This document shows positions 2-18,873 of a stretch of 18,929 nt of DNA, piece after piece. The translations under genes and the position numbers were made by a program. Below the pieces are notes generated by a model. That model was not told the origin of the DNA and searched no databases. It saw only the letters and a list, made by a program, of their open reading frames with translations. Where the stretch lies: UHGV virus genome UHGV-1353644. The stretch is one strand, 5' to 3'. This DNA comes from a virus. Positions within the stretch are counted from its first letter, which is position 1, and each line of letters begins with the position of its first letter.

Positions 2-799
<798 letters not shown>

Positions 800-1486: not shown

Positions 1487-1759
1487 TTATTTGTTCGTAT
1501 ACATCTCTAGATATCGATATACACCCTCAAAACCCTCGTTGAATTCGTCGATGAGGGTTTTCTTATCTTCTTGAGTTAATTCAGAAACAATTTTACGGAA
1601 TGAATTCTGGTTTAACTTTCTACCTTCATGCGTTACTCCAATCTCATTTAGAAATGCAATAAAATTAGCACGATTCTCAACAATATCTTCTCTGGAAAAT
1701 TTAATCAAAATAGACGCAACAGTAATAATTTCACGAACTGTATCAATATTTTTATTCAT
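1487..1759 (-). CDS. asiA: Anti-sigma70 factor AsiA (90 aa)
   Basis: Translation MNKNIDTVREIITVASILIKFSREDIVENRANFIAFLNEIGVTHEGRKLNQNSFRKIVSELTQEDKKTLIDEFNEGFEGVYRYLEMYTNK matches recalled T4 AsiA over full length. Its stop abuts the stop of t (convergent). Confidence 0.95.
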   Translation of the reverse strand: MNKNIDTVREIITVASILIKFSREDIVENRANFIAFLNEIGVTHEGRKLNQNSFRKIVSELTQEDKKTLIDEFNEGFEGVYRYLEMYTNK

Positions 1760-1789
1760 TAACTATACCACTCAATTAGTTGACTTTGT

Positions 1790-1821
1790 TATAATATCAT
1801 CAGACGCTTGATTTGTAAACT
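1790..1821 (-). promoter_or_regulatory. T4 early-type promoter upstream of asiA
   Basis: On minus strand: A/T-rich upstream, GTTTAC (complement of 1815-1820), 18 nt, TATTAT (complement of 1791-1796); ATG of asiA about 30 nt downstream. Confidence 0.55.
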
Positions 1822-1920
1822 GGTCTGTGGTATTTTCTTCGAAAATTTTTTCTACGAATTCCTTGAACGACTTACGTTCCTGAGCTATATTATGCTCGAT
1901 TACTTTTTCAAGATTATGAC

Positions 1921-2199
1921 TCATTCGAAATAATCTTCAATTTCGTAATCATGGACATAAATCATTATAGTTTTTAATACATCATCAATACTTTTTCCTG
2001 GAGCTGGAATTACGTAGAAATATCCTACTTTTGAGTGGTCTTTATAAGTTCCAAACAAGAAATCATTATTCTCAAGATGTAATTCTTCAACTAATTCATT
2101 AACAATTGAATGGTATAGGTTTGGTAGAAACTTATATAGCTTTTCTAGAATATCAATTTTGATTGTATATTGAACCACAGATTGAGAATCAATAATCAT
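1921..2199 (-). CDS. arn: Arn-like anti-restriction protein (92 aa, acidic), inhibitor of McrBC-type restriction in T4
   Basis: 92-aa acidic protein directly upstream of asiA; length, position and recalled sequence agree with T4 Arn. SD GGGGAAGG precedes the ATG. Confidence 0.7.
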   Translation of the reverse strand: MIIDSQSVVQYTIKIDILEKLYKFLPNLYHSIVNELVEELHLENNDFLFGTYKDHSKVGYFYVIPAPGKSIDDVLKTIMIYVHDYEIEDYFE

Positions 2200-2282
2200 A
2201 GACCTTCCCCTTATGTTTCTGTTTGCGATTAGATTCTTTAAACGCTTTCTTCTTATCCTTATGAACAGAAGCTTTATTAAAA

Positions 2283-2501
2283 TTATGCTTTGCGACTAAG
2301 TTGTTCATAATGCTGAATTACCTCTCTTAAACATTTGCATGTGAATGAAAACTTTTTAGCTACACCACATTCAAATATATGTTCTCTTAAATCACGTGTA
2401 TCGGTATATCCCATCTCAACGATAAAGTGCCGTATTAGATTTTTATCTTTATCATTGAGAGAATTAAAATAGTCAGATTTTGAATTAATTTCCCTGGCCA
2501 A
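2283..2501 (-). CDS. Hypothetical protein (72 aa, arn.1 position); probable TTG start
   Basis: ORF track; no in-frame ATG near the 5' end; TTG at 2501 is preceded by SD AAGGTGA. Cys-containing (CGVAKKFSFTCKC). Confidence 0.45.
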   Translation of the reverse strand: MAREINSKSDYFNSLNDKDKNLIRHFIVEMGYTDTRDLREHIFECGVAKKFSFTCKCLREVIQHYEQLSRKA

Positions 2502-2781
2502 GTTGAATCACCTTCAGTTGACGTTTTAGTTCTTTTATAATTTCTTCGTTCATCGCAATATAAAGATCGCGTAAAGCAGGTTTTAGCATTCCATTTACTG
2601 GAGAACTAAATGGACATACATAATCTTTTCCTACGAGCTTTTTGGTGAATTCCATATTACAGAACTTAAATGCCGGTTCATTGGTATAAATTCCCCAATT
2701 AGTTGACATCATTTTATTGGCATATTCCAATGCCTGGATTTGATTCATAATTCCATCAATTTGAAACTTTTTAATATTCAT
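2485..2781 (-). CDS. Hypothetical protein (98 aa)
   Basis: ORF track; ATG at 2781 overlaps the stop of the upstream ORF (ATGA), consistent with translational coupling. Confidence 0.6.
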   Translation of the reverse strand: MNIKKFQIDGIMNQIQALEYANKMMSTNWGIYTNEPAFKFCNMEFTKKLVGKDYVCPFSSPVNGMLKPALRDLYIAMNEEIIKELKRQLKVIQLGQGN

Positions 2782-3239
2782 CAGTAAAGGTCCTCAGAGT
2801 AAAGTTCTTTTTCACTACCACCACGTTCAATACGTACTTGTCCAGCGTAAGTTGCAATAATCATTGCTTCTTCACGTGTCCAATAATTACTATATTGGTC
2901 AATAAACCCTTGGTCATCATCACAAACTTGTTGAGTAACTAATTGAGGTTTAACTATATCTAAAACTTCTGCCATATCTTTAGAATAATGACGAGCACCT
3001 GGAATAATAAGAGTTCGTCCATCTTTTAATTTAAAACGGTTGGCTGCACAGACAATTCGTCGTTGATACTTTTGGTTTTCATCCCAATATGCAGGCTGCC
3101 AACAGATTTCAGGAACTTCATCTAAAACATCCTGTTCTGTATATTCGCCATAAGAAGATAATTTAGCAGCTAAACTTTCAGGAGTCTCACGAGACAAAGC
3201 TTTATCTAACAGAGCTAAACGTTCTTTGAATGTTTTCAT
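2781..3239 (-). CDS. Hypothetical protein (152 aa)
   Basis: ORF track; ATGA overlap with the upstream ORF at 3236-3239; unbroken frame in a compact operon. Confidence 0.65.
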
Positions 3240-3565
3240 TTAAACCATCCTTTAATACGTTGCCATAAAGTTTTCTGTTGAGCTTTGTTGACACCAATTG
3301 AGCGAATAACTGGTTGAGATTCCTGGAATTCTTTATAATCAGCAAGGTAAATTTCGTAAGCTGTATCCGTAAAGGAACTTATCGCTGCCATAAAATTATT
3401 GCGAATACCTACTGGAGCATCTTTGCTTTCACGAATAATCATGTATTTACCAGTCTTAATCTTTACGATAGTTCCAAGATAAGCTCCATGGTACCAGATG
3501 TCCCACCCCTCTTGAGTGGGTTCTGCACAACGACGAAGTTCATTAACAATTTCTAACTTGTTCAT
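3236..3565 (-). CDS. Hypothetical protein (109 aa)
   Basis: ORF track; SD GAGGAA upstream of the ATG at 3565. Confidence 0.65.
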
Positions 3566-3575
3566 TATTTATTCC

Positions 3576-4211
3576 TCACAGTTCAGATGCTACAGTGATT
3601 ACTGCTTCAATGTTTTCTGCCGAGCGTTTAATGTCAAGATACACATTACCGTTTTTAGCGATTTTACACGACATTCCGATATCAGTAAATTTCTGAATAT
3701 GATGTTCCATCATTTTGTATCCAAAAATTCGCATATTTCCGTTATTATTAATTTCAAAATTACGAATTCCGTGAGTGCGTTTTTCTAAAATAGCAAGATA
3801 ATTACTACGATAAGTTTCAACCTTTTTAAGAACAAATCCGTTTTCATCCAAAAGTTTTAACATGAAGTCTTTATCTTCTTCCATATCAGAAGTAATCTCA
3901 CGAGCTTTACGAGTTGCTCGTTTTTTCAGCAGTTCCGGGGCATTTTCCTGTGCGTATAAAGTTGCTGCATTTGAAATAATATCCTGAGCTTCACCAGTAA
4001 TGATTAATCCATCACCAGATTTCTCTACCAAGCCTTTTTTAATCAATACCCCAATATTACTATTAACTACTGCATTACCTAAATCTGGATGCACCTCACG
4101 AACTTCTGCAGCTGTAATGAAATCTTTCTTAGCAATAGTAATTAAAATCGCAGCAGTTTTTTCATTCAGAACATCGTTAGAAGCTTTGATGATGTAAGTT
4201 ACTTTAGACAT
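3576..4211 (-). CDS. motA: MotA, activator of middle-mode transcription (211 aa)
   Basis: Translation MSKVTYIIKASNDVLNEKTAAILITIAKKDFITAAEVREVHPDLGNAVVNSNIGVLIKKGLVEKSGDG... matches recalled T4 MotA; same length; SD GGAG upstream. Confidence 0.95.
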   Translation of the reverse strand: MSKVTYIIKASNDVLNEKTAAILITIAKKDFITAAEVREVHPDLGNAVVNSNIGVLIKKGLVEKSGDGLIITGEAQDIISNAATLYAQENAPELLKKRATRKAREITSDMEEDKDFMLKLLDENGFVLKKVETYRSNYLAILEKRTHGIRNFEINNNGNMRIFGYKMMEHHIQKFTDIGMSCKIAKNGNVYLDIKRSAENIEAVITVASEL

Positions 4212-4251
4212 TTTCTAATCTCCGTAATTCTGTATCAGTAGTTGATAGTTG

Positions 4252-4283
4252 TATAGTACCACAGTATGCTTTGGTTGTAAACC
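4252..4283 (-). promoter_or_regulatory. T4 early-type promoter upstream of motA
   Basis: Minus strand: AAAAATTTTTT upstream, GTTTAC (complement of 4277-4282), 18 nt ending CTGTGG, TACTAT (complement of 4253-4258), then the conserved leader ACAACTATCAACTACTGATAC. Confidence 0.6.
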
Positions 4284-4302
4284 GTTTTGTGAAAAAATTT
4301 TT

Positions 4303-4333
4303 GAAATAAAAAAGGGAGAGCCGAGGCTCTCCC
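4303..4333 (-). terminator. Rho-independent terminator after the 49-aa ORF
   Basis: Minus-strand RNA: 8-bp GC-rich stem GGGAGAGC / GCUCUCCC with a 4-nt loop, immediately followed by UUUUUUAUUU. Confidence 0.7.
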
Positions 4334-4338
4334 TAAAA

Positions 4339-4488
4339 TTATTGCATGACTGTGATAACTGTCATGATAACACGTTGAATTCCGAACGCAAGAAGACCTC
4401 CTGCTACGGCAGGAACAACACCTAAACCCGTCAGTAAAATGCCACCAGATACTAATGCAGCGCTTGTAATACCAATGAATGGACTCAT
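4339..4488 (-). CDS. Small hydrophobic membrane protein (49 aa), motA.1 position
   Basis: My own translation: MSPFIGITSAALVSGGILLTGLGVVPAVAGGLLAFGIQRVIMTVITVMQ. Its ATG overlaps the TGA of gp52 (ATGA); terminator follows. Below the ORF-track length cutoff. Confidence 0.55.
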   Translation of the reverse strand: MSPFIGITSAALVSGGILLTGLGVVPAVAGGLLAFGIQRVIMTVITVMQ

Positions 4489-5813
4489 TTGATTTCCTCT
4501 AAATCTTTGGTGTATTCGGTAACTACATCAGTAGTTTTCCAATATTCGTTCTCTTCTTTTTTAGCTTTAGCTTCTTCAGCAAGTTTCTTCGCTTCATCGG
4601 AAGTCATATGAAAAATATTCATTCCGACTAGTTTATCAGCATAAGAAGAATACATATCAATTTTAGAAAGTTCTTCGGTCAGTTCTTTACGAGTTTTACC
4701 CTGTACAACAATTTCACCTGAAATTACTTTCTTAATGAAATGTGCCTTGGCAAAGGCTAAACGAAATGCTGACTCAGTTTCTTTAATTTTGTTATCAATT
4801 CGTTTTTGGACATAAGTTTTACGAACTTCAACAAAGTCTTTAATTAAATCGACTACGTTATCGTAAACTTGAAGCTTTCCTTTCTCATTAATAACAGTAA
4901 TATTCTGAGAACGACGTTCAATCAATCCGAAGTCTTTCATAATTTTTGCGTGACGTTCTTCTTCATTATCGCTCAAAGAATATTCTTTACGGAATTTAAC
5001 TTTGAAGCCAAAGCCGTGCTCACCACAAGCATCATCCCATGTAATGAAGCCTTTATCTTCAAGCGGGTCTAAAATTTTACTCACATAAGTTTCACGATCA
5101 TACTTATACGGAATCTCAGTGATATGCATTTGAGTTCGTGAAGTAAACTTATATGTTCCGCGAATTTCATATTGCCCATCAATTTCAACGACTTCACCAC
5201 GAAATTCTGGGAATTCTACCTTCGGTTTAGTTACTTTCTTTCCTTGAAGAGCTTGCAATACAGCTTTCTTGACAGAAGAAACACTATGAGGAAGAATGTA
5301 AGTTGCATAACCAGTTGCAATACCGGAAACACCATTAAGAAGAACGGTAGGAATAATAGGCAAATAGAAAGCAGGCGGAATGTGTTCTTTATCTTGATGT
5401 ACCGGAGCATATTCAGTATCTTTATATACACTATAGAAATTTTTACTTACACGAGCAAAAATATAACGACTTGCCGCTGCTTTTTGAACGGTACGAGAAC
5501 CAAAGTTTCCTTGACCATCTAACAGAGGAAAGTTATTATTCCATGTGTTAGCCATCAAAGCACCCGCATCTTGTGCAGAGTTTTCGCCATGATGATATCC
5601 AAGGTCAGCTACACCACCTGCAATAGAAGCGAGTTTATGAAACTTATCTTTATTTCCTCGTGCCAAATCAAGAGCTCGAGCAATAACAAATCGTTGAACT
5701 GGCTTAAATCCATCAATCATATTTGGGATAGCACGATTTTCAACCGTGTACATAGCATAAGCCAATGCTTCATTATCAATGATACTTTTTAAATCGCGAT
5801 TATTCAGTTGCAT
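4485..5813 (-). CDS. 52: DNA topoisomerase II medium subunit gp52 (GyrA-like, 442 aa)
   Basis: Translation has the GyrA/ParC-type catalytic region (AASRYIFARVSKNFY, with the RYxxxR active-site Tyr context) and an N-terminus like recalled T4 gp52. Confidence 0.95.
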   Translation of the reverse strand: MQLNNRDLKSIIDNEALAYAMYTVENRAIPNMIDGFKPVQRFVIARALDLARGNKDKFHKLASIAGGVADLGYHHGENSAQDAGALMANTWNNNFPLLDGQGNFGSRTVQKAAASRYIFARVSKNFYSVYKDTEYAPVHQDKEHIPPAFYLPIIPTVLLNGVSGIATGYATYILPHSVSSVKKAVLQALQGKKVTKPKVEFPEFRGEVVEIDGQYEIRGTYKFTSRTQMHITEIPYKYDRETYVSKILDPLEDKGFITWDDACGEHGFGFKVKFRKEYSLSDNEEERHAKIMKDFGLIERRSQNITVINEKGKLQVYDNVVDLIKDFVEVRKTYVQKRIDNKIKETESAFRLAFAKAHFIKKVISGEIVVQGKTRKELTEELSKIDMYSSYADKLVGMNIFHMTSDEAKKLAEEAKAKKEENEYWKTTDVVTEYTKDLEEIK

Positions 5814-5817
5814 AAAT

Positions 5818-5958
5818 TTACCATACTAGTGAATGTAGTGCCATAATAACATCAGAAATGAAAAGCACGACTTGAATTAATCCGAACATTATTCCATAAT
5901 ATAACGCTATCAATAAAATAGCAAGGGCTAATGAATAGCCCAAGATTTTCTTAATCAT
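5818..5958 (-). CDS. Small membrane protein (46 aa), 52.1 position
   Basis: My own translation: MIKKILGYSLALAILLIALYYGIMFGLIQVVLFISDVIMALHSLVW. ATG sits 5 nt downstream of the stop of the preceding ORF. Confidence 0.5.
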   Translation of the reverse strand: MIKKILGYSLALAILLIALYYGIMFGLIQVVLFISDVIMALHSLVW

Positions 5959-6109
5959 TAGTAGATAACAACACAAATGTTAAATATGCACACATACCCT
6001 GAGCTAAAGCTTGTGAAAACACGCTACTGGCATCGGTACAGATAGTTAAAACGCATACTACTATCCAACAAATAAATGAAATAACTCCTAATAATTTTGC
6101 GATATTCAT
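5951..6109 (-). CDS. Small membrane protein (52 aa), paralogue of the adjacent 51-aa ORF; one of the two is probably the ac-type gene
   Basis: ATG at 6109 preceded by SD GAGGAG (the track extends to an upstream TTG). Protein MNIAKLLGVISFICWIVVCVLTICTDASSVFSQALAQGMCAYLTFVLLSTND shares a CW...SVF.QA.AQG pattern with the neighbour. Confidence 0.55.
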   Translation of the reverse strand: MNIAKLLGVISFICWIVVCVLTICTDASSVFSQALAQGMCAYLTFVLLSTND

Positions 6110-6119
6110 AATATTCTCC

Positions 6120-6275
6120 TCAACTGTTTTTAAAACCAATGCACGCGAATAATGATAAAACTGCTAATACACCCTGGGCTGATGCTTGTAAAAATACTGA
6201 AGTTTCTCCAGTTATTACTGTTCCAGCGAATAAAAAGCACCAACAGAAAAAAGTTATATCATAAATAAATTTCAT
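6120..6275 (-). CDS. Small membrane protein (51 aa), ac-like position
   Basis: My own translation: MKFIYDITFFCWCFLFAGTVITGETSVFLQASAQGVLAVLSLFACIGFKNS. SD GAGGAAAAT directly after the stp stop. Confidence 0.55.
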   Translation of the reverse strand: MKFIYDITFFCWCFLFAGTVITGETSVFLQASAQGVLAVLSLFACIGFKNS

Positions 6276-6282
6276 ATTTTCC

Positions 6283-6363
6283 TCACAGACGTCCGAAGAC
6301 GCCTTTGGTTTTAAGATTTTTACGATAGAACTGCATCACGTGTTCGTTGTGGAAATTACTCAT
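6283..6363 (-). CDS. stp: Stp peptide (26 aa), the T4 peptide that activates the host PrrC anticodon nuclease
   Basis: My own translation [26 protein letters not shown] matches recalled T4 Stp at nearly every position. Its ATG overlaps the TAA of ndd (TAATG). Absent from the ORF track because of length. Confidence 0.8.
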
Positions 6364-6818
6364 TAATATGCCTGCAAAACAAATTTAAAGTTATCAGCCA
6401 ACATACGATTCATTTCTTCAAGTGTTTGATACTCAGAATGATGATTACGAGTAAACGCCAAAGCTAACTGACCTTTTCCAAATCCTGTCGTCAGAGGTTT
6501 CATCTTAGAAGCAGGAAGATAAAATACTGCGTATGGAACATTGTTATTTGCAATAGTACGCGCAAGCTGAGACCGACGCTGACGAATATGACTTAGAACT
6601 GCACTAAATCCTTGCTTAGAACGCTGATTACCTACATAAAATCGTGCAGATACACACGGACTATCAAATGGACCACCAAATTTGCTCACTAAAAAGTAAA
6701 ATCCAGGGTTAGACAAAATGTCTTTATGCGGAGTTCCAAAAACCCATTCACCGCCCTTGATTGTACCAATAACAGTAGCGCCTGCATTATTCAAATCAGT
6801 AACAGTCATATATTTCAT
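6363..6818 (-). CDS. ndd: Nucleoid disruption protein Ndd (151 aa)
   Basis: Translation [25 protein letters not shown]...[25 protein letters not shown]... matches recalled T4 Ndd; same length and position relative to stp. Confidence 0.9.
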
Positions 6819-6877
6819 GTTAATTTCCTCTAATTATTTTCTACTCCAAGGCCGCATGAATACACACGGCCATTAAA

Positions 6878-7093
6878 TTAATCGTCGCAGTCGACGCTCA
6901 ATTCCCAAAACTCTTCTACAGTATAAGTTTCAGTATCATTTTCAATACAGAAACGTTCATTACTGTTATTTGCTAAAGTAGCATTAACTGTCGGTTTCTC
7001 GCTAGTGCTCTTAAGAGGTGAAATACGAATTAACTGATCACCATTATCTAAACAGAAAATTTCACCAACTTTTACATCTTTAAAGATTTTCAT
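6878..7093 (-). CDS. Hypothetical protein (71 aa)
   Basis: ORF track; SD GAGGTG upstream of the ATG at 7093. Confidence 0.6.
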   Translation of the reverse strand: MKIFKDVKVGEIFCLDNGDQLIRISPLKSTSEKPTVNATLANNSNERFCIENDTETYTVEEFWELSVDCDD

Positions 7094-7101
7094 AATTCAC
7101 C

Positions 7102-7212
7102 TCAAGGAGTATAAAATCCAAATGCAGTTGTTGACCATCCCATCCAATACGGGAAATTTGCGCCAATGTAAAACATAAGAATATAAAACCAACCGCTCAG
7201 CAAATTCATCAT
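7102..7212 (-). CDS. Tiny aromatic/hydrophobic ORF (36 aa)
   Basis: My own translation: MMNLLSGWFYILMFYIGANFPYWMGWSTTAFGFYTP. ATG overlaps the stop of the upstream ORF (ATGA). Confidence 0.4.
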   Translation of the reverse strand: MMNLLSGWFYILMFYIGANFPYWMGWSTTAFGFYTP

Positions 7213-7406
7213 TTTACACCATTCCAAATTGTTTCAATCACGGATTTTAAACCATTCTGATGAATATCCATTCCGACTACAGCCATCAAATAGATTCCAA
7301 CTACAACTGAACCTAATGCAAAAATCAGCATGAAAATGAATAAAGCCGGAAAAATATTATCGAAAAACCATTCCATAAATGTAAAAGCACTGCGTTTACG
7401 TTTCAT
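7209..7406 (-). CDS. Small membrane protein (65 aa)
   Basis: Internal ATG at 7406 preceded by SD TGAGGAAAAT (the track extends to 7427). Basic N-terminus MKRKRSAF followed by a hydrophobic stretch. Confidence 0.55.
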   Translation of the reverse strand: MKRKRSAFTFMEWFFDNIFPALFIFMLIFALGSVVVGIYLMAVVGMDIHQNGLKSVIETIWNGVK

Positions 7407-7413
7407 ATTTTCC

Positions 7414-7527
7414 TCACATAAATCCAAAGTAAACGTTTAATACATCAATCATTAAAACGATTGGGAATATACTCAAAACAACTAAAATTATAATTATATT
7501 CCATATAGCTTTAACAATCTTTTTCAT
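7414..7527 (-). CDS. Small membrane protein (37 aa)
   Basis: ATG at 7527 preceded by SD GGAGGA and lying just downstream of an early promoter; protein MKKIVKAIWNIIIILVVLSIFPIVLMIDVLNVYFGFM. The track's upstream extension would cover the promoter. Confidence 0.45.
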   Translation of the reverse strand: MKKIVKAIWNIIIILVVLSIFPIVLMIDVLNVYFGFM

Positions 7528-7554
7528 TTTCTGTTCCTCCGTAGTTGATAGGGT

Positions 7555-7586
7555 AATAGTACCACAGAGGAACAGTCTTGTAAACA
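7555..7586 (-). promoter_or_regulatory. T4 early-type promoter inside the small-ORF cluster
   Basis: Minus strand: GTTTAC (complement of 7580-7585), 18 nt ending CTGTGG, TACTAT (complement of 7556-7561), then leader TATCAACTACGGAGG. Confidence 0.55.
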
Positions 7587-7591
7587 ACTTT

Positions 7592-7690
7592 TTAAAAATA
7601 TTCGTAATAAATGTGAATACCAATCACTACTGCCGAAACTTGCGCAACCCACCATGCACAAGCAATAAGTACAGAATTCAAAATTTTCAT
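7592..7690 (-). CDS. Tiny hydrophobic ORF (32 aa)
   Basis: My own translation: MKILNSVLIACAWWVAQVSAVVIGIHIYYEYF. SD GAGGT upstream; ATG overlaps the stop of the upstream ORF (ATGA). Confidence 0.4.
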   Translation of the reverse strand: MKILNSVLIACAWWVAQVSAVVIGIHIYYEYF

Positions 7691-7773
7691 AATAACCTCA
7701 TCACAAAAGTAAATGTTAAACAAATTACTGGAATACTAATTAACCAAACAAAACACCACCATAACGAACTCAT
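7687..7773 (-). CDS. Tiny hydrophobic ORF (28 aa)
   Basis: My own translation: MSSLWWCFVWLISIPVICLTFTFVMRLL. ATG overlaps the TGA of the 87-aa ORF. Could be a chance frame in A/T-rich DNA. Confidence 0.35.
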   Translation of the reverse strand: MSSLWWCFVWLISIPVICLTFTFVMRLL

Positions 7774-8033
7774 AGTTCAATCTCAGCGATTTTCATTTCA
7801 TTACTATTAATAGCCGCTTTAAGACTATCCGAAAGAATTACATTCCAGTGGTCATTCATATGACCATTAACTAAGCGTGTAATTTCTTCAGGAGTTGAAA
7901 AATAAGGCTGATCAGACTCCCAGTGCGATAATCCTAAGCGGGTATAAATCATACCTTCATCATCGCTAGAATATTCAACTGACACAAACTCATCAGTTGT
8001 TTTATGTTTAGCGTAATAAAATTTAAATTTCAT
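7770..8033 (-). CDS. Hypothetical protein (87 aa from ATG at 8033; the track uses TTG at 8042)
   Basis: ORF track. The first ATG lies 5 nt downstream of the stop of the upstream ORF (8039-8041). Confidence 0.55.
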   Translation of the reverse strand: MKFKFYYAKHKTTDEFVSVEYSSDDEGMIYTRLGLSHWESDQPYFSTPEEITRLVNGHMNDHWNVILSDSLKAAINSNEMKIAEIEL

Positions 8034-8038
8034 TTTAT

Positions 8039-8245
8039 TCAATAATCCGCTAAAAGATCGACGATTGCATCACGAAGACATTTATTCGCAATACGTTTAA
8101 GAGCAATTTCAGTTTCAGGCGCATTTCGAATAATCATTGAATTCAATTCAGCTTCGGCAAACTGAAGTTCTTTGACTAATTCAGCTTTATATTTTCCTTG
8201 ACCTTTCTTAGCTTTTGCTCGTTTTAATTCAGCTGTAGTAAACAT
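8039..8245 (-). CDS. Hypothetical protein (68 aa), Lys/Ala/Glu-rich
   Basis: Internal ATG at 8245 preceded by SD GGAGAA, about 35 nt downstream of an early promoter. The track's longer form (to 8344) would run through the promoter. Confidence 0.55.
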   Translation of the reverse strand: MFTTAELKRAKAKKGQGKYKAELVKELQFAEAELNSMIIRNAPETEIALKRIANKCLRDAIVDLLADY

Positions 8246-8278
8246 TTTGTTCTCCAAATCCGTATCAGTTGATAGTTG

Positions 8279-8310
8279 TATAGTACCACAGTCCTTGTGG
8301 TATGTAAACC
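8279..8310 (-). promoter_or_regulatory. T4 early-type promoter downstream of denB
   Basis: Minus strand: TTTAAAAAATTT upstream, GTTTAC (complement of 8304-8309), 18 nt ending CTGTGG, TACTAT (complement of 8280-8285), leader ACAACTATCAACTGATAC. Near-identical to the motA promoter. Confidence 0.6.
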
Positions 8311-8325
8311 ATTTTGTGAAATTTT

Positions 8326-8883
8326 TTAAATGGAAAGATACCATCCGTTGTAGTTACTTTTTCTTACAACCTTACGAAGGTCTTCTCTATCACCAATGAA
8401 CTTCGGAGTGTACTGGATGACACCTGGATGAATTTCTTTAGTGTTGAATATAATTATACAGTCAGCGACCTGATGATTCAGAATGGGCCCTAGATTTATT
8501 CCAGAACCGTATGGATACTCTCCGCTGCATCCTGTTGTTACCGAAATCCAACGAGAGTCAGTTTGATGTGTTTTGACTTCTACTCGAAGCCCACAGTATT
8601 TTGGATGTGCCAAAACATCCCATGCATATGTATACGGGTCATCTACATCTTCTTGACCTTTGTTAACATATCCACTTAACCAATCTGCTACAACATACTC
8701 GGCATACACTGCGATACGGCATCTTTCGATAACTTCTGCCTTATCCTGATTTGGATTTTGCTTTAAAGAATATCTCGCAGTATCAGCAATTTTGACCTTC
8801 ATTTCACTAGTCAAGTCACCGTTCGATAGGGTAAATGTCGGAATCTGAAATAGTCTCTGTAACCCCGGATTCGTTTTCTGCAT
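8326..8883 (-). CDS. denB: Endonuclease IV DenB-like (185 aa)
   Basis: Length and position between rIIB and ndd agree with recalled T4 denB. SD AAGGAAA upstream of the ATG at 8883. No diagnostic motif checked. Confidence 0.65.
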   Translation of the reverse strand: MQKTNPGLQRLFQIPTFTLSNGDLTSEMKVKIADTARYSLKQNPNQDKAEVIERCRIAVYAEYVVADWLSGYVNKGQEDVDDPYTYAWDVLAHPKYCGLRVEVKTHQTDSRWISVTTGCSGEYPYGSGINLGPILNHQVADCIIIFNTKEIHPGVIQYTPKFIGDREDLRKVVRKSNYNGWYLSI

Positions 8884-9145
8884 TTAGACTTTCCTTTTTA
8901 CCGCTGAGATAAGCGTTATACACTTTAAGAGTACCGTAGTAAATTCGATCGTTTTCATCTAAAGACTCGCGGTCAAGTTCATCGAGTTCCTTTTTATCCA
9001 TGACTATAACATCATTGCAGTAAAGAAACCCAAGTTTTTCGTGACCAAACTCTAATTTATTACAATACACAATGTTAGCGTGATGATTACCATGTAAAGA
9101 AATTTCTTTCATGTCGGAATCACCGATATTCATACAATAAATCAT
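8816..9145 (-). CDS. Hypothetical protein (109 aa); 3' end overlaps the denB start by 68 nt
   Basis: ORF track; SD AAGGTGA upstream of the ATG at 9145. Acidic C-terminal half; contains GDSD...HGNHH. Confidence 0.5.
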   Translation of the reverse strand: MIYCMNIGDSDMKEISLHGNHHANIVYCNKLEFGHEKLGFLYCNDVIVMDKKELDELDRESLDENDRIYYGTLKVYNAYLSGKKESLNAENESGVTETISDSDIYPIER

Positions 9146-9155
9146 AATTCACCTT

Positions 9156-9178
9156 AAAACAAAAGGGCCGAAGCCCTT
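9156..9178 (-). terminator. Rho-independent terminator (UUCG-loop hairpin plus U-tract) after the 64-aa ORF
   Basis: Minus-strand RNA: AAGGGC-UUCG-GCCCUU followed by UUGUUUU. The stem includes the ORF's stop codon. Confidence 0.6.
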
Positions 9179-9188
9179 ATTTAAATTG
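9163..9188. repeat. 26-bp direct repeat, copy 1 (aagggccgaagcccttatttaaattg)
   Basis: Identical to 9386-9411. Covers the last codons (QFK-stop) of the 64-aa ORF plus the UUCG hairpin. Confidence 0.85.
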
Positions 9189-9371
9189 CGCAATTCTTTT
9201 CTCTAGACATTCAGCATAAGATTTCATTGAGATAAACTGTGAAAGCAGTAATTCTTGTTCAACTTCATTAACTGTTAGAAACTTCGTGCTTTCTAAAAAT
9301 TTGCCCAGTGCATTAATTTTGAGCATTAATTGTTCGTATTCTTCTTTTACTCGTGCTTGATAACCTAACAT
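9177..9371 (-). CDS. Hypothetical protein (64 aa), predicted helical
   Basis: ORF track; SD AAGGAAA upstream of the ATG at 9371. Flanked by the two copies of the 26-bp repeat. Confidence 0.6.
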   Translation of the reverse strand: MLGYQARVKEEYEQLMLKINALGKFLESTKFLTVNEVEQELLLSQFISMKSYAECLEKRIAQFK

Positions 9372-12765: not shown

Positions 12766-12797
12766 AATTATACCACATCCTTGTGGTAAAGTAAACT
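12766..12797 (-). promoter_or_regulatory. T4 early-type promoter for rIIA.1-rIIA-rIIB, abutting the gp39 stop codon
   Basis: Minus strand: GTTTAC (complement of 12791-12796, overlapping the gp39 TAG by 1 nt), 18 nt ending ATGTGG, TATAAT (complement of 12767-12772). Confidence 0.6.
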
Positions 12798-14613
12798 ACT
12801 GGCTCATCCATTCTTTGCGAAGGTCAGCATTATCTCCCATGAGCATTTCAAAAAGCTCTTTCCAATTCTCAGGAAGTTTAACAACATCATATACTGGATT
12901 TTGAATCATCTCACGATATTCAGATTTTTCCAAAGAGCCAAGTCCTTTAATATAACGGATGCTATGTTTAGGTAGAGCATCTTTGGCACTCTCATATTCA
13001 GCGACTGTATAAAACCATTCTTGTTTTTTACCGACCTGAGCGATGATTACAGGAGTTTTGACAAAGCGAATTCGCCCCTGTTCAAACAGTTCTGGCCAAT
13101 TACTAAAAAATCCAAGCAGAGAAGGATAAATGCTTCCTAGACCATCATGGTCAGCATCAGTCATAATAGCAATATTACGATAATTCAAGTTTTCAGCTTT
13201 TTCACCAAGAACTAGACCAGTGATTGCGCAAATATCAAATAGTTCTTTGTTTTTAAGCATATCGGCATATGACATACCCCAGCTATTAAGAACTTTACCA
13301 CGCAATGGATAACCACCATGAAGTTCTTTATCGCGAACATCAATAAGATATCCGATAGCAGAATCACCCTCAGTTAAGAACAATGTAGTGTCAGCATCTT
13401 TACCACAAAGATTCGCTTTAATATGTTTATGAACCTTAGCTTTAGAAGCCTTTTTAGCTGCTTTAGTTTCTGCTGCTTTTTCTGCCGCCAATTTACGAGC
13501 TAATGCTGCTTCAATAATTGGCATCAAAATTGCTTCATTATTTAGAATAGCGCGTGAAATCTTTTTAGCATCAAGTTGAATATGACTACGAATTTCACCA
13601 AATGGAGAAGTCAAACGCTCTTTAGTTTGAGAATCAAATCGCATGTTTTTCATATCACGAACAAACATAACGATAGTCAAACATTCTTTAACACGTGCTT
13701 TAGTTACATCAATTTTGAACTTACGTTTGATTTGTGGAATAAGGTCTTCACAAATATCATCCATAACACAATCAATGTGATGGCCACCATTCTTAGTGTG
13801 AATGTTATTCACGTAAGTTAATTGACGAAAACCATCCGGTGAACGACCAACCGCAATAGAACAATTTTCTTGCTCTTGAACAATAGCATGCTCATCATAT
13901 TGGCGTGCATATTTCTTAAAATTACCCTGAACCTTTTTACCATTAAAGGTAAATTGAATATCAGGATAAACTACAGCAAGTGTCTGGAGACGATCTAGTG
14001 TAATGTCAAGATAAACTTGGGACAGCTCATTAGTTTCAAATGACATAAAATCAGGAATGAAAGTAACACGAGTTCCTTTCCATTTTCCAGGAATATCTTC
14101 CCATGATTTATTTTCCATGCCATTTGAACAACGAACTACAATATTATTTTGACCATCACCAGTTTCACCGACAAACATCACAGAAAAAATGTTTGTCAAA
14201 CTAGAACCAACACCGTTCATACCACCAGTGACGCGTTCTTTATCATCACCGAAGTTACCACCAGCTTTTGGAATAGTCCAAGCAGCTACCGGACCAGGAA
14301 TTTCTTCGCCGGTAGGTGTTTTAACCATCGCTTGTGGAATACCACGACCGTTATCTTCAACTGTTACTTGATTGTTTTTAATAGTAACATTAATTTTATT
14401 CGCGAATTTAAACTTAGTACGAATACCTTCATCTACTGAGTTATCGATAATTTCATCAATAAGCTTAACAAGACCAGGTACATACTGAACACTTTCCCAT
14501 TTACCAAACAGAAAGCGCTCATGCATTTCATTAGCGGAAGAGCCAATGTACATGCCGCTACGCTTTTTGATATGTTCAATATCGCTCAGAATTTTAATTT
14601 CATTCTTAATCAT
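12796..14613 (-). CDS. 39: DNA topoisomerase II large subunit gp39, unsplit GyrB-like form (605 aa from ATG)
   Basis: GHKL ATPase motif VEDNGRGIP, Toprim motifs LTEGDSA and DADHDG, and PLRGK. One continuous 605/606-aa frame, as in T2-type phages where genes 39 and 60 are fused. ATG at 14613 has SD GAGGA at good spacing (the track starts at GTG 14616). Confidence 0.95.
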   Translation of the reverse strand: MIKNEIKILSDIEHIKKRSGMYIGSSANEMHERFLFGKWESVQYVPGLVKLIDEIIDNSVDEGIRTKFKFANKINVTIKNNQVTVEDNGRGIPQAMVKTPTGEEIPGPVAAWTIPKAGGNFGDDKERVTGGMNGVGSSLTNIFSVMFVGETGDGQNNIVVRCSNGMENKSWEDIPGKWKGTRVTFIPDFMSFETNELSQVYLDITLDRLQTLAVVYPDIQFTFNGKKVQGNFKKYARQYDEHAIVQEQENCSIAVGRSPDGFRQLTYVNNIHTKNGGHHIDCVMDDICEDLIPQIKRKFKIDVTKARVKECLTIVMFVRDMKNMRFDSQTKERLTSPFGEIRSHIQLDAKKISRAILNNEAILMPIIEAALARKLAAEKAAETKAAKKASKAKVHKHIKANLCGKDADTTLFLTEGDSAIGYLIDVRDKELHGGYPLRGKVLNSWGMSYADMLKNKELFDICAITGLVLGEKAENLNYRNIAIMTDADHDGLGSIYPSLLGFFSNWPELFEQGRIRFVKTPVIIAQVGKKQEWFYTVAEYESAKDALPKHSIRYIKGLGSLEKSEYREMIQNPVYDVVKLPENWKELFEMLMGDNADLRKEWMSQ

Positions 14614-14640
14614 CACTTATCCTCGTTTGGTTTCGGGAAT

Positions 14641-18189: not shown

Positions 18190-18873
18190 TTATCGTTTTG
18201 TTGGAAGAGATAGAGGATCGCAATCTTCCTCTGACGGAGCATCTTCAAGACCCATAGCGTATCGTAAAGCATACTTCATCATCAGAATGTCTTTCGCGCA
18301 GTCATGAATAGAATCATGCGCAACGAATCCATCTAAAGTTCCTTTTGGAAGAGGACACGTGGTCATATCACGAACAAGTAGAAGTGCTTCAATTCTGGTA
18401 CGAATATCACGCTGATTCCAGAACTTACATGGTTCTAACTTAAATGTGTCAAGCTCATTTTCGGAAACGCCATTAAGACGTTGAATATCACGAATGAGAT
18501 CGACTAAAATTGGAAAATCAAACGACATTCCACGGCACCAGCCTTGAGATTTCCAAGGATCGATATTATGTGCATTGATGTAATCATTAAATTTCGCAAT
18601 ACCATCGATAGTGCTTACATCTTCATCGGATGGTGCAATATTTTTTCGAGCTTCAGGGGATTGATTCTTCCACCATTCAATAGTGCTTTTAGTAAAAAGA
18701 CGGTGTCCTTTTTGGCTTTTCAAATCAAATTTGATTTTAATGCCACGTGAAACTAATTCATCAAATGTTTCAACGACTTCTGGATTAGGGTCAAAAGCAA
18801 TTACAGCCAAATCAATAACAGCTGCTTTTTCACCACTTCCCATTGTTTCAAAATCTATAATAAAATCAAACAT
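18190..18873 (-). CDS. dexA: Exonuclease A DexA (DEDDh 3'-5' exonuclease, 227 aa)
   Basis: Exo I motif FIIDFETMG near the N-terminus and Exo III motif FVAHDSIHDCAKD near the C-terminus (DnaQ-like DEDDh). Length 227 aa as recalled for T4 dexA; SD GCGAGGAAAA upstream. Confidence 0.85.
   Translation of the reverse strand: MFDFIIDFETMGSGEKAAVIDLAVIAFDPNPEVVETFDELVSRGIKIKFDLKSQKGHRLFTKSTIEWWKNQSPEARKNIAPSDEDVSTIDGIAKFNDYINAHNIDPWKSQGWCRGMSFDFPILVDLIRDIQRLNGVSENELDTFKLEPCKFWNQRDIRTRIEALLLVRDMTTCPLPKGTLDGFVAHDSIHDCAKDILMMKYALRYAMGLEDAPSEEDCDPLSLPTKR

What the first reader, a model, noticed from the sequence alone, without database searches (positions are those of the whole stretch)
1487..8883. The window concentrates host-takeover and anti-defence functions, making the unknown neighbours candidate new effectors
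Recognisable genes in this stretch include asiA (sigma70 takeover), arn (anti-McrBC), motA, stp (PrrC trigger), ndd (nucleoid disruption) and denB. The rII genes and dexA lie just beyond. Interleaved are about fifteen uncharacterised small ORFs, all early-expressed. Guilt by association makes the four ORFs between arn and motA (2283-3565) and the ndd-to-denB cluster worth screening for anti-restriction or anti-abortive-infection activity.
Basis: inference. Interest (0 to 1): 0.45.

Follow-up and report, generated by a model that had tools for sequence, protein, structure and literature searches.

The report
T4 early genes; antitoxin-like Arn.3

Summary
The window is a Tequatrovirus (T4-like) genome segment. 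This is confirmed by 90-100% identity to T4 proteins and by Pfam. About 20 small ORFs lie between them. All show purifying selection, so they are real genes, but no sequence or fold search gives any of them a function. The block itself is textbook T4, and the guilt-by-association idea is already voiced in the literature.

One concrete lead emerged. Residues 1-31 of Arn.3 (window 2781-3239) are 64-68% identical to the N-terminal helix pair of CmdA, the antitoxin of CmdTAC (PD-T4-9), a prophage-borne system that aborts T-even infection. The hairpin is a sharply bounded hypervariable cassette. It occurs in tandem in some phages and is fused to unrelated partners in two other phage lineages. It lacks CmdA's chaperone-dependent tail and degron. 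This fits a stable antitoxin surrogate.

However, published plating data show that Bas36, with a near-identical hairpin, is restricted 10^5-fold by CmdTAC. The function is therefore unproven and may be allele-specific. Overall: an ordinary region with one modest, testable new lead.

The parts
1487..1759 (-). asiA, anti-sigma70 factor (90 aa)
   Evidence: 100% identical to T4 AsiA; Pfam AsiA E 1e-42
1772..1924 (-). asiA.1, acidic 50-aa ORF of unknown function
   Evidence: 94% identical to T4 AsiA.1; phrog_3762, unknown function; pN/pS 0.48
1921..2199 (-). arn, DNA-mimic inhibitor of McrBC (92 aa)
   Evidence: 94.6% identical to T4 Arn; Pfam DM_Arn E 2e-51
2189..2308 (-). orf39, lysine-rich 39-aa protein (DUF7230). 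Not annotated in the T4 RefSeq, BASEL or P8 records.
   Evidence: Conserved in all 16 phages compared, with many synonymous changes; pN/pS 0.14. Pfam DUF7230 E 1e-11. Already called in RB68 and T2 records.
2283..2501 (-). arn.1, probably 72 aa (TTG start at 2501) rather than the 43 aa annotated in T4 (ATG at 2414)
   Evidence: The 5' extension has 22 synonymous and 0 non-synonymous differences. The Bas38/46/47 lineage starts it with ATG-ATG. phrog_4452 is a 72-aa profile.
2485..2781 (-). arn.2 (98 aa), unknown function. Its 3' end, CCAGGGAAAT (2497-2488), is the site where the T2 study places pairing with host sRNA ArcZ.
   Evidence: 94.9% identical to T4 Arn.2; sequence; T2 ArcZ preprint; no PDB relative
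2781..3239 (-). arn.3 (152 aa): N-terminal CmdA-like hairpin plus C-terminal T4_Y16D domain (PF26092)
3147..3239 (-). Arn.3 residues 1-31: a helix-turn-helix hairpin homologous to the N-terminus of antitoxin CmdA. It lies inside a hypervariable cassette of about 130 nt (roughly 3107-3245).
   Evidence: PADLOC PD-T4-9_B E 4.9e-9. BLASTP 21/31 identical to CmdA, E 2e-11. AF2 helices 4-16 and 20-29. 40-77% nucleotide identity to T4 between flanks of 90-100%.
2781..3104 (-). Arn.3 C-terminal T4_Y16D domain, with invariant R83, H84, Q110-G-F-I-D-Q and a C-terminal SEDLY
3236..3565 (-). arn.4, 109 aa (T4's 68-aa annotation is too short), unknown function
3576..4211 (-). motA, middle-transcription activator
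   Evidence: 97.6% identical to T4 MotA; Pfam MotA_activ and MotCF
4339..4488 (-). motA.1, 49-aa hydrophobic peptide
   Evidence: 95.9% identical to T4; maximum 19-residue hydropathy 2.13
4485..5813 (-). gene 52, topoisomerase II medium subunit
   Evidence: 99.3% identical to T4 gp52
5818..5958 (-). 52.1, 46-aa membrane peptide
   Evidence: 93.5% identical to T4; hydropathy 2.50
5951..6109 (-). ac, acridine-sensitivity membrane peptide (52 aa)
   Evidence: 92% identical to T4 Ac; hydropathy 2.83
6120..6275 (-). ac-like paralogue (51 aa), absent from T4
   Evidence: 40% identical to Ac, E 5e-6. Best database copy is 86% identical, and only 60 phage records fall in the 80-90% band.
6283..6363 (-). 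stp, 26-aa peptide that inhibits EcoprrI and triggers PrrC
   Evidence: Matches T4 Stp with substitutions N15K and Q26L; Pfam Nuclease_act E 1e-19
6363..6818 (-). ndd, nucleoid disruption protein
   Evidence: 94.7% identical to T4 Ndd; Pfam Phage_T4_Ndd E 2e-88
6878..7093 (-). ndd.1, acidic 71-aa ORF (pI 4.3)
   Evidence: 95.8% identical to T4; pN/pS 0.10; phrog_2183, unknown function
7102..7773 (-). ndd.2, ndd.2a (probably the 65-aa form, 7209-7406), ndd.4 (7414-7527), ndd.5 and ndd.6: a run of small, mostly single-pass hydrophobic peptides. T4's ndd.3 frame lies at 7328-7402.
   Evidence: 90-100% identical to T4; hydropathy 1.2-3.1; pN/pS 0.06-0.25
7770..8033 (-). orf87, acidic accessory ORF absent from T4; exists as two alleles
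   Evidence: 93-98% or 54-55% identical across BASEL phages, and absent from T4; phrog_2390, unknown function; pN/pS 0.23
8039..8344 (-). orf101, more likely a 68-aa protein starting at Met34 (8039-8245). Accessory ORF absent from T4.
   Evidence: phrog_4535 covers residues 34-99. Found in 129 phage records, including RB14, PP01 and Bas45. An early-promoter look-alike lies at 8308-8280.
8326..8883 (-). denB, endonuclease IV (185-aa reading; the true start may be Met28 at 8802)
   Evidence: 97.8% identical to T4 DenB. BASEL records annotate a 158-aa form.
8816..9145 (-). orf109, acidic DUF7418 protein, variably present; overlaps the long reading of denB by 68 nt
   Evidence: Pfam DUF7418 E 2e-36, full length; present or absent across phages; pN/pS 0.09
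9177..9371 (-). denB.1 (64 aa), crAss001_48-like
   Evidence: 90.6% identical to T4; Pfam PF21825 E 4e-19

Best explanation
The stretch is the canonical T-even pre-replicative block (asiA, arn operon, motA, gene 52, ac, stp, ndd, denB). It is inherited by synteny from the T4 lineage. The named takeover and anti-defence genes work as in T4, which I take from established knowledge. The interleaved small ORFs are real, mostly highly conserved T-even genes whose functions stay unassigned.

The one ORF with specific evidence is Arn.3, a two-part protein.

(1) Shown: a hypervariable, recombinationally exchanged N-terminal helix-turn-helix hairpin of TPR type. It is homologous to the N-terminal helix pair of CmdA, the antitoxin of the prophage-borne anti-T-even CmdTAC system.

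(2) Shown: a widely distributed phage domain (T4_Y16D) with no known fold relative.

(3) Inferred mechanism: the hairpin is an exchangeable protein-binding adaptor at a phage-host conflict interface. Most plausibly it grips CmdT-family mRNA ADP-ribosyltransferase toxins as CmdA does. Because Arn.3 lacks CmdA's chaperone-dependent tail and its ClpXP degron, it would act as a degradation-proof surrogate antitoxin with allele-specific range.

My step-wise confidence:
- Identity of the region: 0.98
- Hairpin-CmdA homology is real: 0.9
- The hairpin is a conflict-interface adaptor: 0.5
- It neutralises some CmdT variant: 0.2-0.25
For: Region identity.

ORFs are real genes: pN/pS 0.00-0.48 for all.

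Hairpin homology:
- PADLOC PD-T4-9_B, E 4.9e-9, positions 1-31 of 77.
- A reciprocal profile search recovered 77-81-aa proteins. They sit in three-gene operons of P2-like prophages. These score as full-length PD-T4-9 A, B and C, with E 1e-90, 1e-33 and 1e-57.
- BLASTP 21/31 identical, E 2e-11.
- Third-codon positions are near random (10-15 of 34) despite 61-68% protein identity, which indicates shared protein-level constraint.

Structure: the AF2 model has helices 4-16 and 20-29. [quoted passage not shown]

Feasibility: stabilised CmdA alone neutralises CmdT.

Conflict-interface signatures:
- A cassette of about 130 nt that is 40-77% identical to T4, between flanks of 90-100%.
- Four or more allele classes across 797 phage records.
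- Two different hairpins in tandem in P0005.
- The same hairpin fused to unrelated partners in a lambdoid-type phage and in a third phage type, never next to CmdT or CmdC.
- The T4_Y16D fold occurs inside large polyvalent proteins.

Both natural CmdTAC escapers (Bas35, Bas38) carry private hairpin alleles. The known T4 escape route, Alt.-3 extension, does not explain them.
Against: Plating data: Bas36's hairpin differs from the window's at about three positions, yet Bas36 is restricted to EOP 5e-6 by CmdTAC(ECOR22). Bas46 is also CmdA-like and is restricted to 3e-5. Similarity to CmdA does not predict escape (Spearman rho -0.40, p 0.18, n = 13). T2, T4 and T6 are all restricted.

Generic module: the hairpin also resembles generic TPR_10/12 repeats at 41-45% identity. 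It could simply be a common interaction or folding unit.

Unproven contact: no text states that CmdA's helices are what contact CmdT. This is inferred from TAC architecture.

C-domain: it has no fold or family match that points to any activity, and it is unrelated to CmdT.

Other ORFs: nothing beyond their position supports an anti-defence role.
Confidence: 0.5

Rival explanations
1. The Arn.3 hairpin is a generic TPR-type helical hairpin. It might be a folding cap, a dimerisation element or an adaptor for the T4_Y16D domain. Its resemblance to CmdA would then reflect module sharing within the phage and prophage gene pool (CmdTAC lives on P2-like prophages), with no functional connection to CmdTAC.
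For: - phmmer of the hairpin against 1.8 billion representatives hits TPR_10/12 repeat proteins, with 6-8 matched repeats each.
- Phages carrying CmdA-like alleles are fully restricted by CmdTAC.
- Most T4_Y16D homologues lack the hairpin altogether, so the hairpin is an optional accessory.
Against: - Identity to CmdA (64-68%, anchored at Met1 in both proteins) is far above identity to TPR repeats (41-45%).
- The cassette is hypervariable between near-identical genomes and is stacked in tandem. That is unusual for a purely structural cap.
- The only cellular homologues recovered belong to a system that specifically targets the same phage group.
Confidence: 0.35
2. Most of the unknown neighbours are not anti-defence effectors. 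The hydrophobic mini-proteins (motA.1, 52.1, ac, ac-like, ndd.2-ndd.6) would act on the host envelope, affecting permeability, exclusion or lysis timing. The soluble ones (arn.1, arn.2, arn.4, ndd.1) would be conserved host-takeover or regulatory factors. Their position next to arn and stp would reflect shared early timing rather than shared purpose.
For: - Eight ORFs have a single strongly hydrophobic segment, with hydropathy 1.8-3.1.
- These ORFs are 90-100% conserved among Tequatroviruses and show low pN/pS. This is unlike the presence/absence and allelic turnover typical of counter-defence genes.
- Ac is known for acridine uptake (T4 annotation).
- No PADLOC, PHROG, Pfam or NCBIfam link to defence was found.
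Against: - Conserved counter-defence genes do exist; arn itself is 95-97% conserved.
- Absence of annotation is not evidence of absence.
- A whole alternative asiA.1-arn-arn.2 cassette exists in Bas38, Bas42, Bas46 and Bas47, so there is some turnover in the arn operon.
Confidence: 0.4
3. The small ORFs are annotation noise: chance open frames in AT-rich DNA between real genes.
For: Many are very short (26-50 aa), and mechanical ORF lists in this window are crowded.
Against: - Every tested ORF has pN/pS well below 1, and 22 synonymous against 0 non-synonymous changes in the arn.1 extension.
- Reading frames are preserved across divergent lineages.
- Dedicated PHROG or Pfam families exist for them.
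Confidence: 0.03

Closest known systems
Phage T4 asiA-denB region (NC_000866, 160.9-167.7 kb)
   Same: Same gene order and strand, with 90-100% protein identity for all 24 T4 genes in the stretch.
   Different: - The window adds an ac-like ORF, orf87, orf68/101 and a DUF7418 ORF.
- It carries a different Arn.3 hairpin allele, 57% identical to T4's over the 48-aa N-terminal segment.
- Stp has two substitutions.
- Outside the stretch it has T2-type gp38 and an unsplit gene 39.
CmdA, antitoxin of CmdTAC / PD-T4-9 (Vassallo 2022, PMC9519451; Vassallo 2024, PMC11618068)
   Same: The N-terminal 31 residues are 64-68% identical (19/31 against the E. coli CmdA), begin at Met1 in both proteins, and are predicted as a pair of helices in both.
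   Different: - Arn.3 has no unstructured chaperone-addiction tail and no C-terminal AA degron (it ends in SEDLY).
- It has no neighbouring CmdT or CmdC.
- It carries a 105-aa T4_Y16D domain instead.
- It is encoded by the lytic phage that CmdTAC targets.
Phage-encoded antitoxin surrogates: T4-like AdfN/gp30.3 against DarTG1 (PMC11257639), the ICP1 antitoxin mimic against DarTG (10.1101/2023.12.14.571748), phiTE pseudo-ToxI (PMC3594212), and T4 Dmd (from my own knowledge)
   Same: The concept is the same: a lytic phage carries an orphan copy or mimic of an antitoxin, without the toxin, to disarm a toxin-antitoxin abortive-infection system.
   Different: Those cases have demonstrated activity, while Arn.3 has none. 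AdfN is a whole enzymatic antitoxin homologue, whereas Arn.3 shares only a 31-residue hairpin. The available plating data argue against protection from CmdTAC(ECOR22).
TPR_10/TPR_12 tetratricopeptide repeats
   Same: The hairpin matches single repeats (pattern ...ALxxxEKALGKEHPDTL...) at 41-45% identity in multi-repeat proteins.
   Different: It is a single hairpin rather than an array. Pfam TPR models do not score it. It is much closer to CmdA than to any TPR.

Membership tests
AsiA anti-sigma factor | Sequence membership in Pfam PF09010 and orthology to T4 AsiA | tested here: met
   E 1e-42; 100% identity over 90 aa
Arn DNA-mimic anti-McrBC protein | Pfam DM_Arn (PF22134), small and acidic, orthologous position | tested here: met
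   E 2e-51; 94.6% identity; pI 4.7, net charge -9
MotA middle-transcription activator | Both the MotA_activ and MotCF domains | tested here: met
   E 5e-61 and 9e-67
Stp (anticodon-nuclease activator / EcoprrI inhibitor) | 26-aa peptide of Pfam PF08133, located immediately upstream of ndd | tested here: met
   E 1e-19; its stop overlaps the ndd start at 6363; two substitutions relative to T4
Ndd nucleoid disruption protein | Full-length match to Pfam PF06591 | tested here: met
   E 2e-88
DenB endonuclease IV | Orthology to T4 DenB (no Pfam model exists) | tested here: met
   97.8% identity over 185 aa; no Pfam hit
CmdA antitoxin (PD-T4-9_B), considered for Arn.3 | N-terminal helix pair homologous to CmdA | tested here: met
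   PADLOC E 4.9e-9 over profile positions 1-31; 68% identity; helices 4-16 and 20-29
CmdA antitoxin (PD-T4-9_B), considered for Arn.3 | Unstructured C-terminal chaperone-addiction region, covering the rest of the 77-position profile | tested here: not met
   The match stops at profile position 31 of 77. The rest of Arn.3 is a folded T4_Y16D domain.
CmdA antitoxin (PD-T4-9_B), considered for Arn.3 | C-terminal Ala-Ala ClpXP degron | tested here: not met
   Arn.3 ends ...YSEDLY. CmdA proteins end in LAA or QAA.
CmdA antitoxin (PD-T4-9_B), considered for Arn.3 | Operon with the CmdT ADP-ribosyltransferase and the SecB-like CmdC | tested here: not met
   The neighbours are arn.2 and arn.4. Genuine CmdA proteins sit between PD-T4-9_A and PD-T4-9_C.
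Phage-encoded antitoxin surrogate (works-like claim for Arn.3) | Neutralises the cognate toxin, or restores plating on defence-carrying cells | tested here: inconclusive
   Only indirect evidence is available. Bas36 and Bas46, with CmdA-like hairpins, are restricted. Bas35 and Bas38, with private alleles, escape. Spearman rho -0.40, p 0.18. A direct assay is not possible with these tools.
Type II restriction enzyme fold (considered for Arn.4) | PD-(D/E)xK nuclease fold | tested here: not met
TPR repeat proteins (considered for the Arn.3 hairpin) | Significant match to a Pfam TPR model, or an array of repeats | tested here: inconclusive
   No Pfam hit for the 34-aa hairpin, but phmmer finds TPR_10/12 proteins at 41-45% identity per repeat.

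The most novel reading that the evidence does not exclude
T-even phages use the Arn.3 N-terminal hairpin as an orphan, degradation-proof surrogate of the CmdA antitoxin. It would re-capture CmdT-family mRNA ADP-ribosyltransferases after the host's own CmdA is destroyed. The hairpin cassette would be swapped and stacked among phages to track CmdT variants. The conserved T4_Y16D domain might add a second activity, possibly RNA-directed, given its neighbours in other genomes. Bas35 and Bas38 would owe their natural resistance to CmdTAC(ECOR22) to their private hairpin alleles.
Probability: 0.2. Interest if true: 0.65.

Novelty: already known. Interest (0 to 1): 0.3.

Why it matters
The block itself adds nothing new, because it is the T4 map. 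What matters is that a 20-year-old T4 ORFan (Arn.3, also known as Y16D) now has a specific, cheap test: does its hairpin bind or neutralise CmdT? A positive result would give three things. It would be the first natural phage counter-measure to a toxin-antitoxin-chaperone system. It would explain why Bas35 and Bas38 escape CmdTAC. And it would be an example of a counter-defence specificity module that phages exchange as a cassette. A negative result would show that antitoxin-like sequence in a phage is not enough to infer counter-defence, which is a useful caution for guilt-by-homology screens. The annotation corrections also affect how the recent ArcZ/RNase E model for the arn operon should be read. 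These are arn.1 at 72 aa, arn.4 at 109 aa, and the DUF7230 gene between arn.1 and arn.

Tried and rejected
1. Simple decoy model, in which the more CmdA-like the hairpin, the better the escape. Rejected using published EOPs for 12 BASEL phages plus T4.
2. Natural Alt.-3 extension as the cause of the Bas35 and Bas38 escapes. Rejected: Alt.-3 is 96 aa in all, identical between Bas35 and T4 and between Bas38 and Bas36.
3. Arn.3 as a fused antitoxin-toxin relic. Rejected: hhalign of T4_Y16D against CmdT gives probability 0.1%.
4. Recent horizontal transfer of cmdA into arn.3. Rejected: 50-57% nucleotide identity, with third-codon positions near random.
5. PADLOC model contamination as the source of the hit. 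Rejected by the reciprocal search and by operon context.
6. Arn.4 as a restriction-enzyme-like protein. Rejected by fold search.
8. Sequence searches of arn.2, arn.4, orf87, orf109 and denB.1 against the PDB found nothing below E 0.27. NCBIfam returned nothing. PHROGs labels every one of these families 'unknown function', apart from names copied from 'arn'.
9. tblastn of the hairpin against plasmids gave only chance hits.
10. A MotA-box pattern scan was not enriched and found no site in the stretch.
11. A literature search for the other small ORF names was swamped by 'Asia.1' and was useless.
12. Comparing the asiA-denB gene content of the two escapers with that of the restricted phages found no shared unique gene.

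Full report
**What the window is.** Megablast against 50,697 phage records finds 985 matching records. Of these, 199 cover at least 80% of the window. The best matches are Tequatroviruses (T4-like Escherichia and Shigella phages) at about 94-95% identity. The annotation of a close relative and of T4 itself gives a gene-by-gene map. From 1487 onward, all genes in the stretch lie on the minus strand.

**Checking the observation.** I ran tblastn with all 24 T4 proteins from asiA to rIIB. Each has one strong match in the window, in T4 order:

- asiA: 100%
- arn: 94.6%
- motA: 97.6%
- gene 52: 99.3%
- stp: substitutions N15K and Q26L relative to T4
- ndd: 94.7%
- denB: 97.8%
- rIIB: 98.1%

Pfam independently confirms AsiA, DM_Arn, both MotA domains, Ndd and the Stp family. 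The rII genes follow directly, and dexA lies at 18190-18873. It is also textbook: this is the T4 map, conserved by descent, and not a statistical concentration.

**Are the small ORFs real?** I computed Nei-Gojobori pN/pS against orthologues in 14 related phages: T4, vB_EcoM_P8 and twelve BASEL phages. Every ORF lies between 0.00 and 0.48, and most lie between 0.05 and 0.25. So they are protein-coding. The same analysis corrects three annotations.

- arn.4 is 109 aa. Its first 41 codons, missing from the T4 record, have pN/pS 0.07, and all database homologues are 107-119 aa.
- arn.1 is very probably 72 aa. The 29 codons upstream of the annotated ATG show 22 synonymous and 0 non-synonymous differences. 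They start with TTG in T4-type phages and with ATG-ATG in the Bas38/46/47 lineage.
- A 39-aa lysine-rich ORF (2189-2308, Pfam DUF7230) fills the supposed gap between arn.1 and arn. It is conserved in all 16 phages compared. It has been called in some genomes, but not in the T4 RefSeq, BASEL or P8 records.

**What do the unknown ORFs look like?**

- PHROGs places each in a family of unknown function.
- Pfam gives only DUF7418 for orf109 and a crAss001_48-like domain for denB.1.
- NCBIfam gives nothing.
- PDB sequence searches give nothing.
- Physicochemically, eight ORFs are single-segment hydrophobic peptides: motA.1, 52.1, ac, ac-like, ndd.2a, ndd.4, ndd.5 and ndd.6.
- asiA.1, ndd.1, orf87 and orf109 are acidic.

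The variable elements are different ones:

- the Arn.3 N-terminus;
- orf87, which has two alleles at about 55% identity and is absent from T4;
- orf68/101, which is present in 129 phage records;
- the DUF7418 ORF, which is present in some phages and absent in others;
- an ac-like paralogue that no database phage carries at more than 86% identity.

**The one specific lead: Arn.3.** In a scan against PADLOC's defence-system models, residues 1-31 of Arn.3 matched PD-T4-9_B at E 4.9e-9. T4's own Arn.3 scores only 16 bits.

PD-T4-9 is CmdTAC, a toxin-antitoxin-chaperone system carried in the hypervariable region of P2-like prophages. It aborts T-even infection. The capsid protein titrates the SecB-like CmdC, ClpXP then degrades the antitoxin CmdA, and the freed CmdT ADP-ribosylates mRNA.

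To exclude a model artefact, I ran a reciprocal profile search with Arn.3 N-termini. It recovered 77-81-aa bacterial proteins. Their genomic context is a three-gene operon of 190, 77-81 and 129 aa, between the P2 replication gene and the portal gene. Those three genes score as full-length PD-T4-9 A, B and C. Pairwise, Arn.3 residues 1-31 are 68% identical to CmdA (E 2e-11).

The AlphaFold model of Arn.3 (pLDDT 88.9) has helices at 4-16 and 20-29. This matches the published description of CmdA as a pair of N-terminal helices followed by an unstructured tail. Arn.3 lacks that tail and the terminal Ala-Ala degron. In their place it has a compact domain, Pfam T4_Y16D, that is often found alone in other phages.

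**Signatures around the hairpin.**

- At the DNA level the hairpin is a cassette of about 130 nt. It is 40-77% identical to T4, and it sits between flanks that are 90-100% identical.
- Across 797 phage records the hairpin falls into several allele classes.
- One Arn.3 homologue, P0005, carries two different hairpins in tandem.
- The same hairpin, 68-77% identical, heads a 75-aa protein in lambdoid-type phages. It also sits inside a 298-aa protein in a third phage type. In neither case is CmdT or CmdC nearby.
- Nucleotide identity to cmdA is only 50-57%, with third-codon positions near random. The similarity is therefore old and maintained at the protein level.
- Stabilised CmdA alone neutralises CmdT, so a stable surrogate is mechanistically feasible.
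- Phage-encoded antitoxin surrogates are an established category.

**Testing the idea against published data.** Vassallo et al. 2024 plated 12 BASEL Tevenvirinae on cmdTAC(ECOR22) cells. All were restricted between 10^2.8-fold and 10^6.3-fold, except Bas35 (EOP 0.85) and Bas38 (EOP 0.32). I fetched arn.3 from every one of them. I also fetched E. coli CmdA from operons of the same length as ECOR22's.

- T4-type hairpins occur in nine phages, all restricted.
- Both escapers have non-T4 hairpins.
- However, Bas36's hairpin is almost the window's, and it is the most CmdA-like among the tested phages. Bas36 is restricted to EOP 5e-6. Bas46 is restricted to 3e-5.
- Similarity to CmdA does not predict escape (Spearman rho -0.40, p 0.18).

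The window-type allele therefore does not protect against that CmdTAC. What remains open is an allele-specific version of the idea. Each escaper has a private allele, and the chance of that is 6/78 = 0.077. The one known T4 escape route, C-terminal extension of Alt.-3, does not explain the escapers. Alt.-3 is 96 aa in all of them, identical between Bas35 and T4 and between Bas38 and Bas36.

**Caveats on the homology.** An exhaustive HMMER search with the 34-aa hairpin also hits TPR_10/12 repeat proteins, at 41-45% identity per repeat. The module is therefore a TPR-type hairpin, which is a generic protein-binding unit. This raises the weight of the rival reading, in which the likeness to CmdA reflects a shared building block rather than a shared target.

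The C-domain gave no functional handle.

- It shows no similarity to CmdT.
- In the viral structure library its only relatives are uncharacterised phage proteins, plus three 'large polyvalent protein' entries.
- In two unrelated genomes it sits beside RNA ligase and polynucleotide kinase genes. This is suggestive but anecdotal.

**Verdict.** Its interpretation is partly supported. One of the flagged ORFs does have an independent sequence link to a defence system that targets this phage group, but functional data do not back it so far, and nothing comparable was found for the rest.

The region is already known, so overall interest is modest. The most novel reading still allowed is that Arn.3 is an allele-specific orphan CmdA surrogate. 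I put that at about 0.2 probability. It is directly testable with a toxicity-rescue assay and with hairpin swaps in Bas35, Bas38 and Bas36.

Noticed in passing
window 2415-2501 (minus strand): The '70-nt intergenic region' between arn.2 and arn.1 appears to be coding. The T2/ArcZ preprint places an RNase E site there. It extends Arn.1 to 72 aa (22 synonymous against 0 non-synonymous changes; ATG-ATG start in the Bas38/46/47 lineage). The stretch where the preprint places ArcZ pairing, CCAGGGAAAT at 2497-2488, then also covers codons 2-4 of Arn.1. ArcZ could therefore affect arn.1 translation as well as RNA stability.
   Followed up: partly
window 2189-2308 (minus strand): A 39-aa lysine-rich ORF (pI 10.2, Pfam DUF7230) fills the arn.1-arn gap. 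It is conserved in all 16 phages compared, including Bas42, which lacks arn.1. It is missing from the T4 RefSeq, BASEL and P8 annotations, but is called in RB68 and T2 records.
   Followed up: yes
window 3443-3565 (minus strand): Arn.4 is 109 aa. The T4 RefSeq entry (68 aa) starts 41 codons too late (pN/pS 0.07 for the missing part; all homologues are 107-119 aa).
   Followed up: yes
window 8816-8883: The DUF7418 ORF overlaps the 185-aa reading of denB by 68 nt. BASEL annotators start DenB at the internal Met28 (158 aa), which removes the overlap. T4, which lacks the DUF7418 gene, keeps a remnant of its 3' end here. T4's long DenB N-terminus may therefore be an annotation artefact.
   Followed up: partly
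window 6120-6275 (minus strand): An extra ac-like membrane peptide lies between ac and stp. It is 40% identical to Ac and about 61% identical to the Mosigvirus Ac. No database phage has it at more than 86% identity.
   Followed up: partly
L014 (Bas38), L019 (Bas42), L023 and L024 (Bas46/47), compared with window 1772-2781: These phages carry an alternative asiA.1-arn-arn.2 cassette. Their arn is not detectable by tblastn and their arn.2 is only about 40% identical, although motA and gene 52 are 99-100% identical in Bas38 and Bas42. This points to a second recombination hot spot in the arn operon.
   Followed up: no
P0005 (203-aa Arn.3 homologue, from a 170.6-kb phage contig): It carries two different CmdA-like hairpins in tandem, one window-like and one T4-like, ahead of a single T4_Y16D domain.
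   Followed up: partly
L025 6001-6297; L029 and L030 6001-6291: Stand-alone T4_Y16D homologues lie next to, or within a few kb of, RNA ligase and polynucleotide kinase-phosphatase genes. This is seen in a 2.2-Mb bacterial contig and in an 80-kb phage contig. It hints at an RNA-repair connection.
   Followed up: partly
Bas35 (MZ501113) and Bas38 (MZ501052): Their natural escape from CmdTAC(ECOR22) is unexplained. Alt.-3 is wild-type in both, and no gene in the asiA-denB block is shared uniquely by the two. Each has a private Arn.3 hairpin allele.
   Followed up: partly
window 8308-8280, 7584-7556 and 4281-4253 (minus strand); 4334-4313 and 9178-9163 (minus strand): Three near-identical promoter look-alikes (TTTACA, 17 nt, TACTAT, with an upstream TG) resemble T4 early promoters. 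They sit ahead of orf68, ndd.4 and motA. Strong terminator-like hairpins follow motA.1 and denB.1.
   Followed up: no
window 8-799 and 12796-14616: Outside the finding: gp38 is the 263-aa T2-type adhesin, not T4's 183-aa assembly chaperone. Gene 39 is a single 606-aa ORF, so this phage lacks T4's split 39/60 arrangement.
   Followed up: no
window 6283-6363: Stp differs from T4 at N15K and Q26L. I did not assess whether this alters EcoprrI inhibition or PrrC triggering.
   Followed up: no
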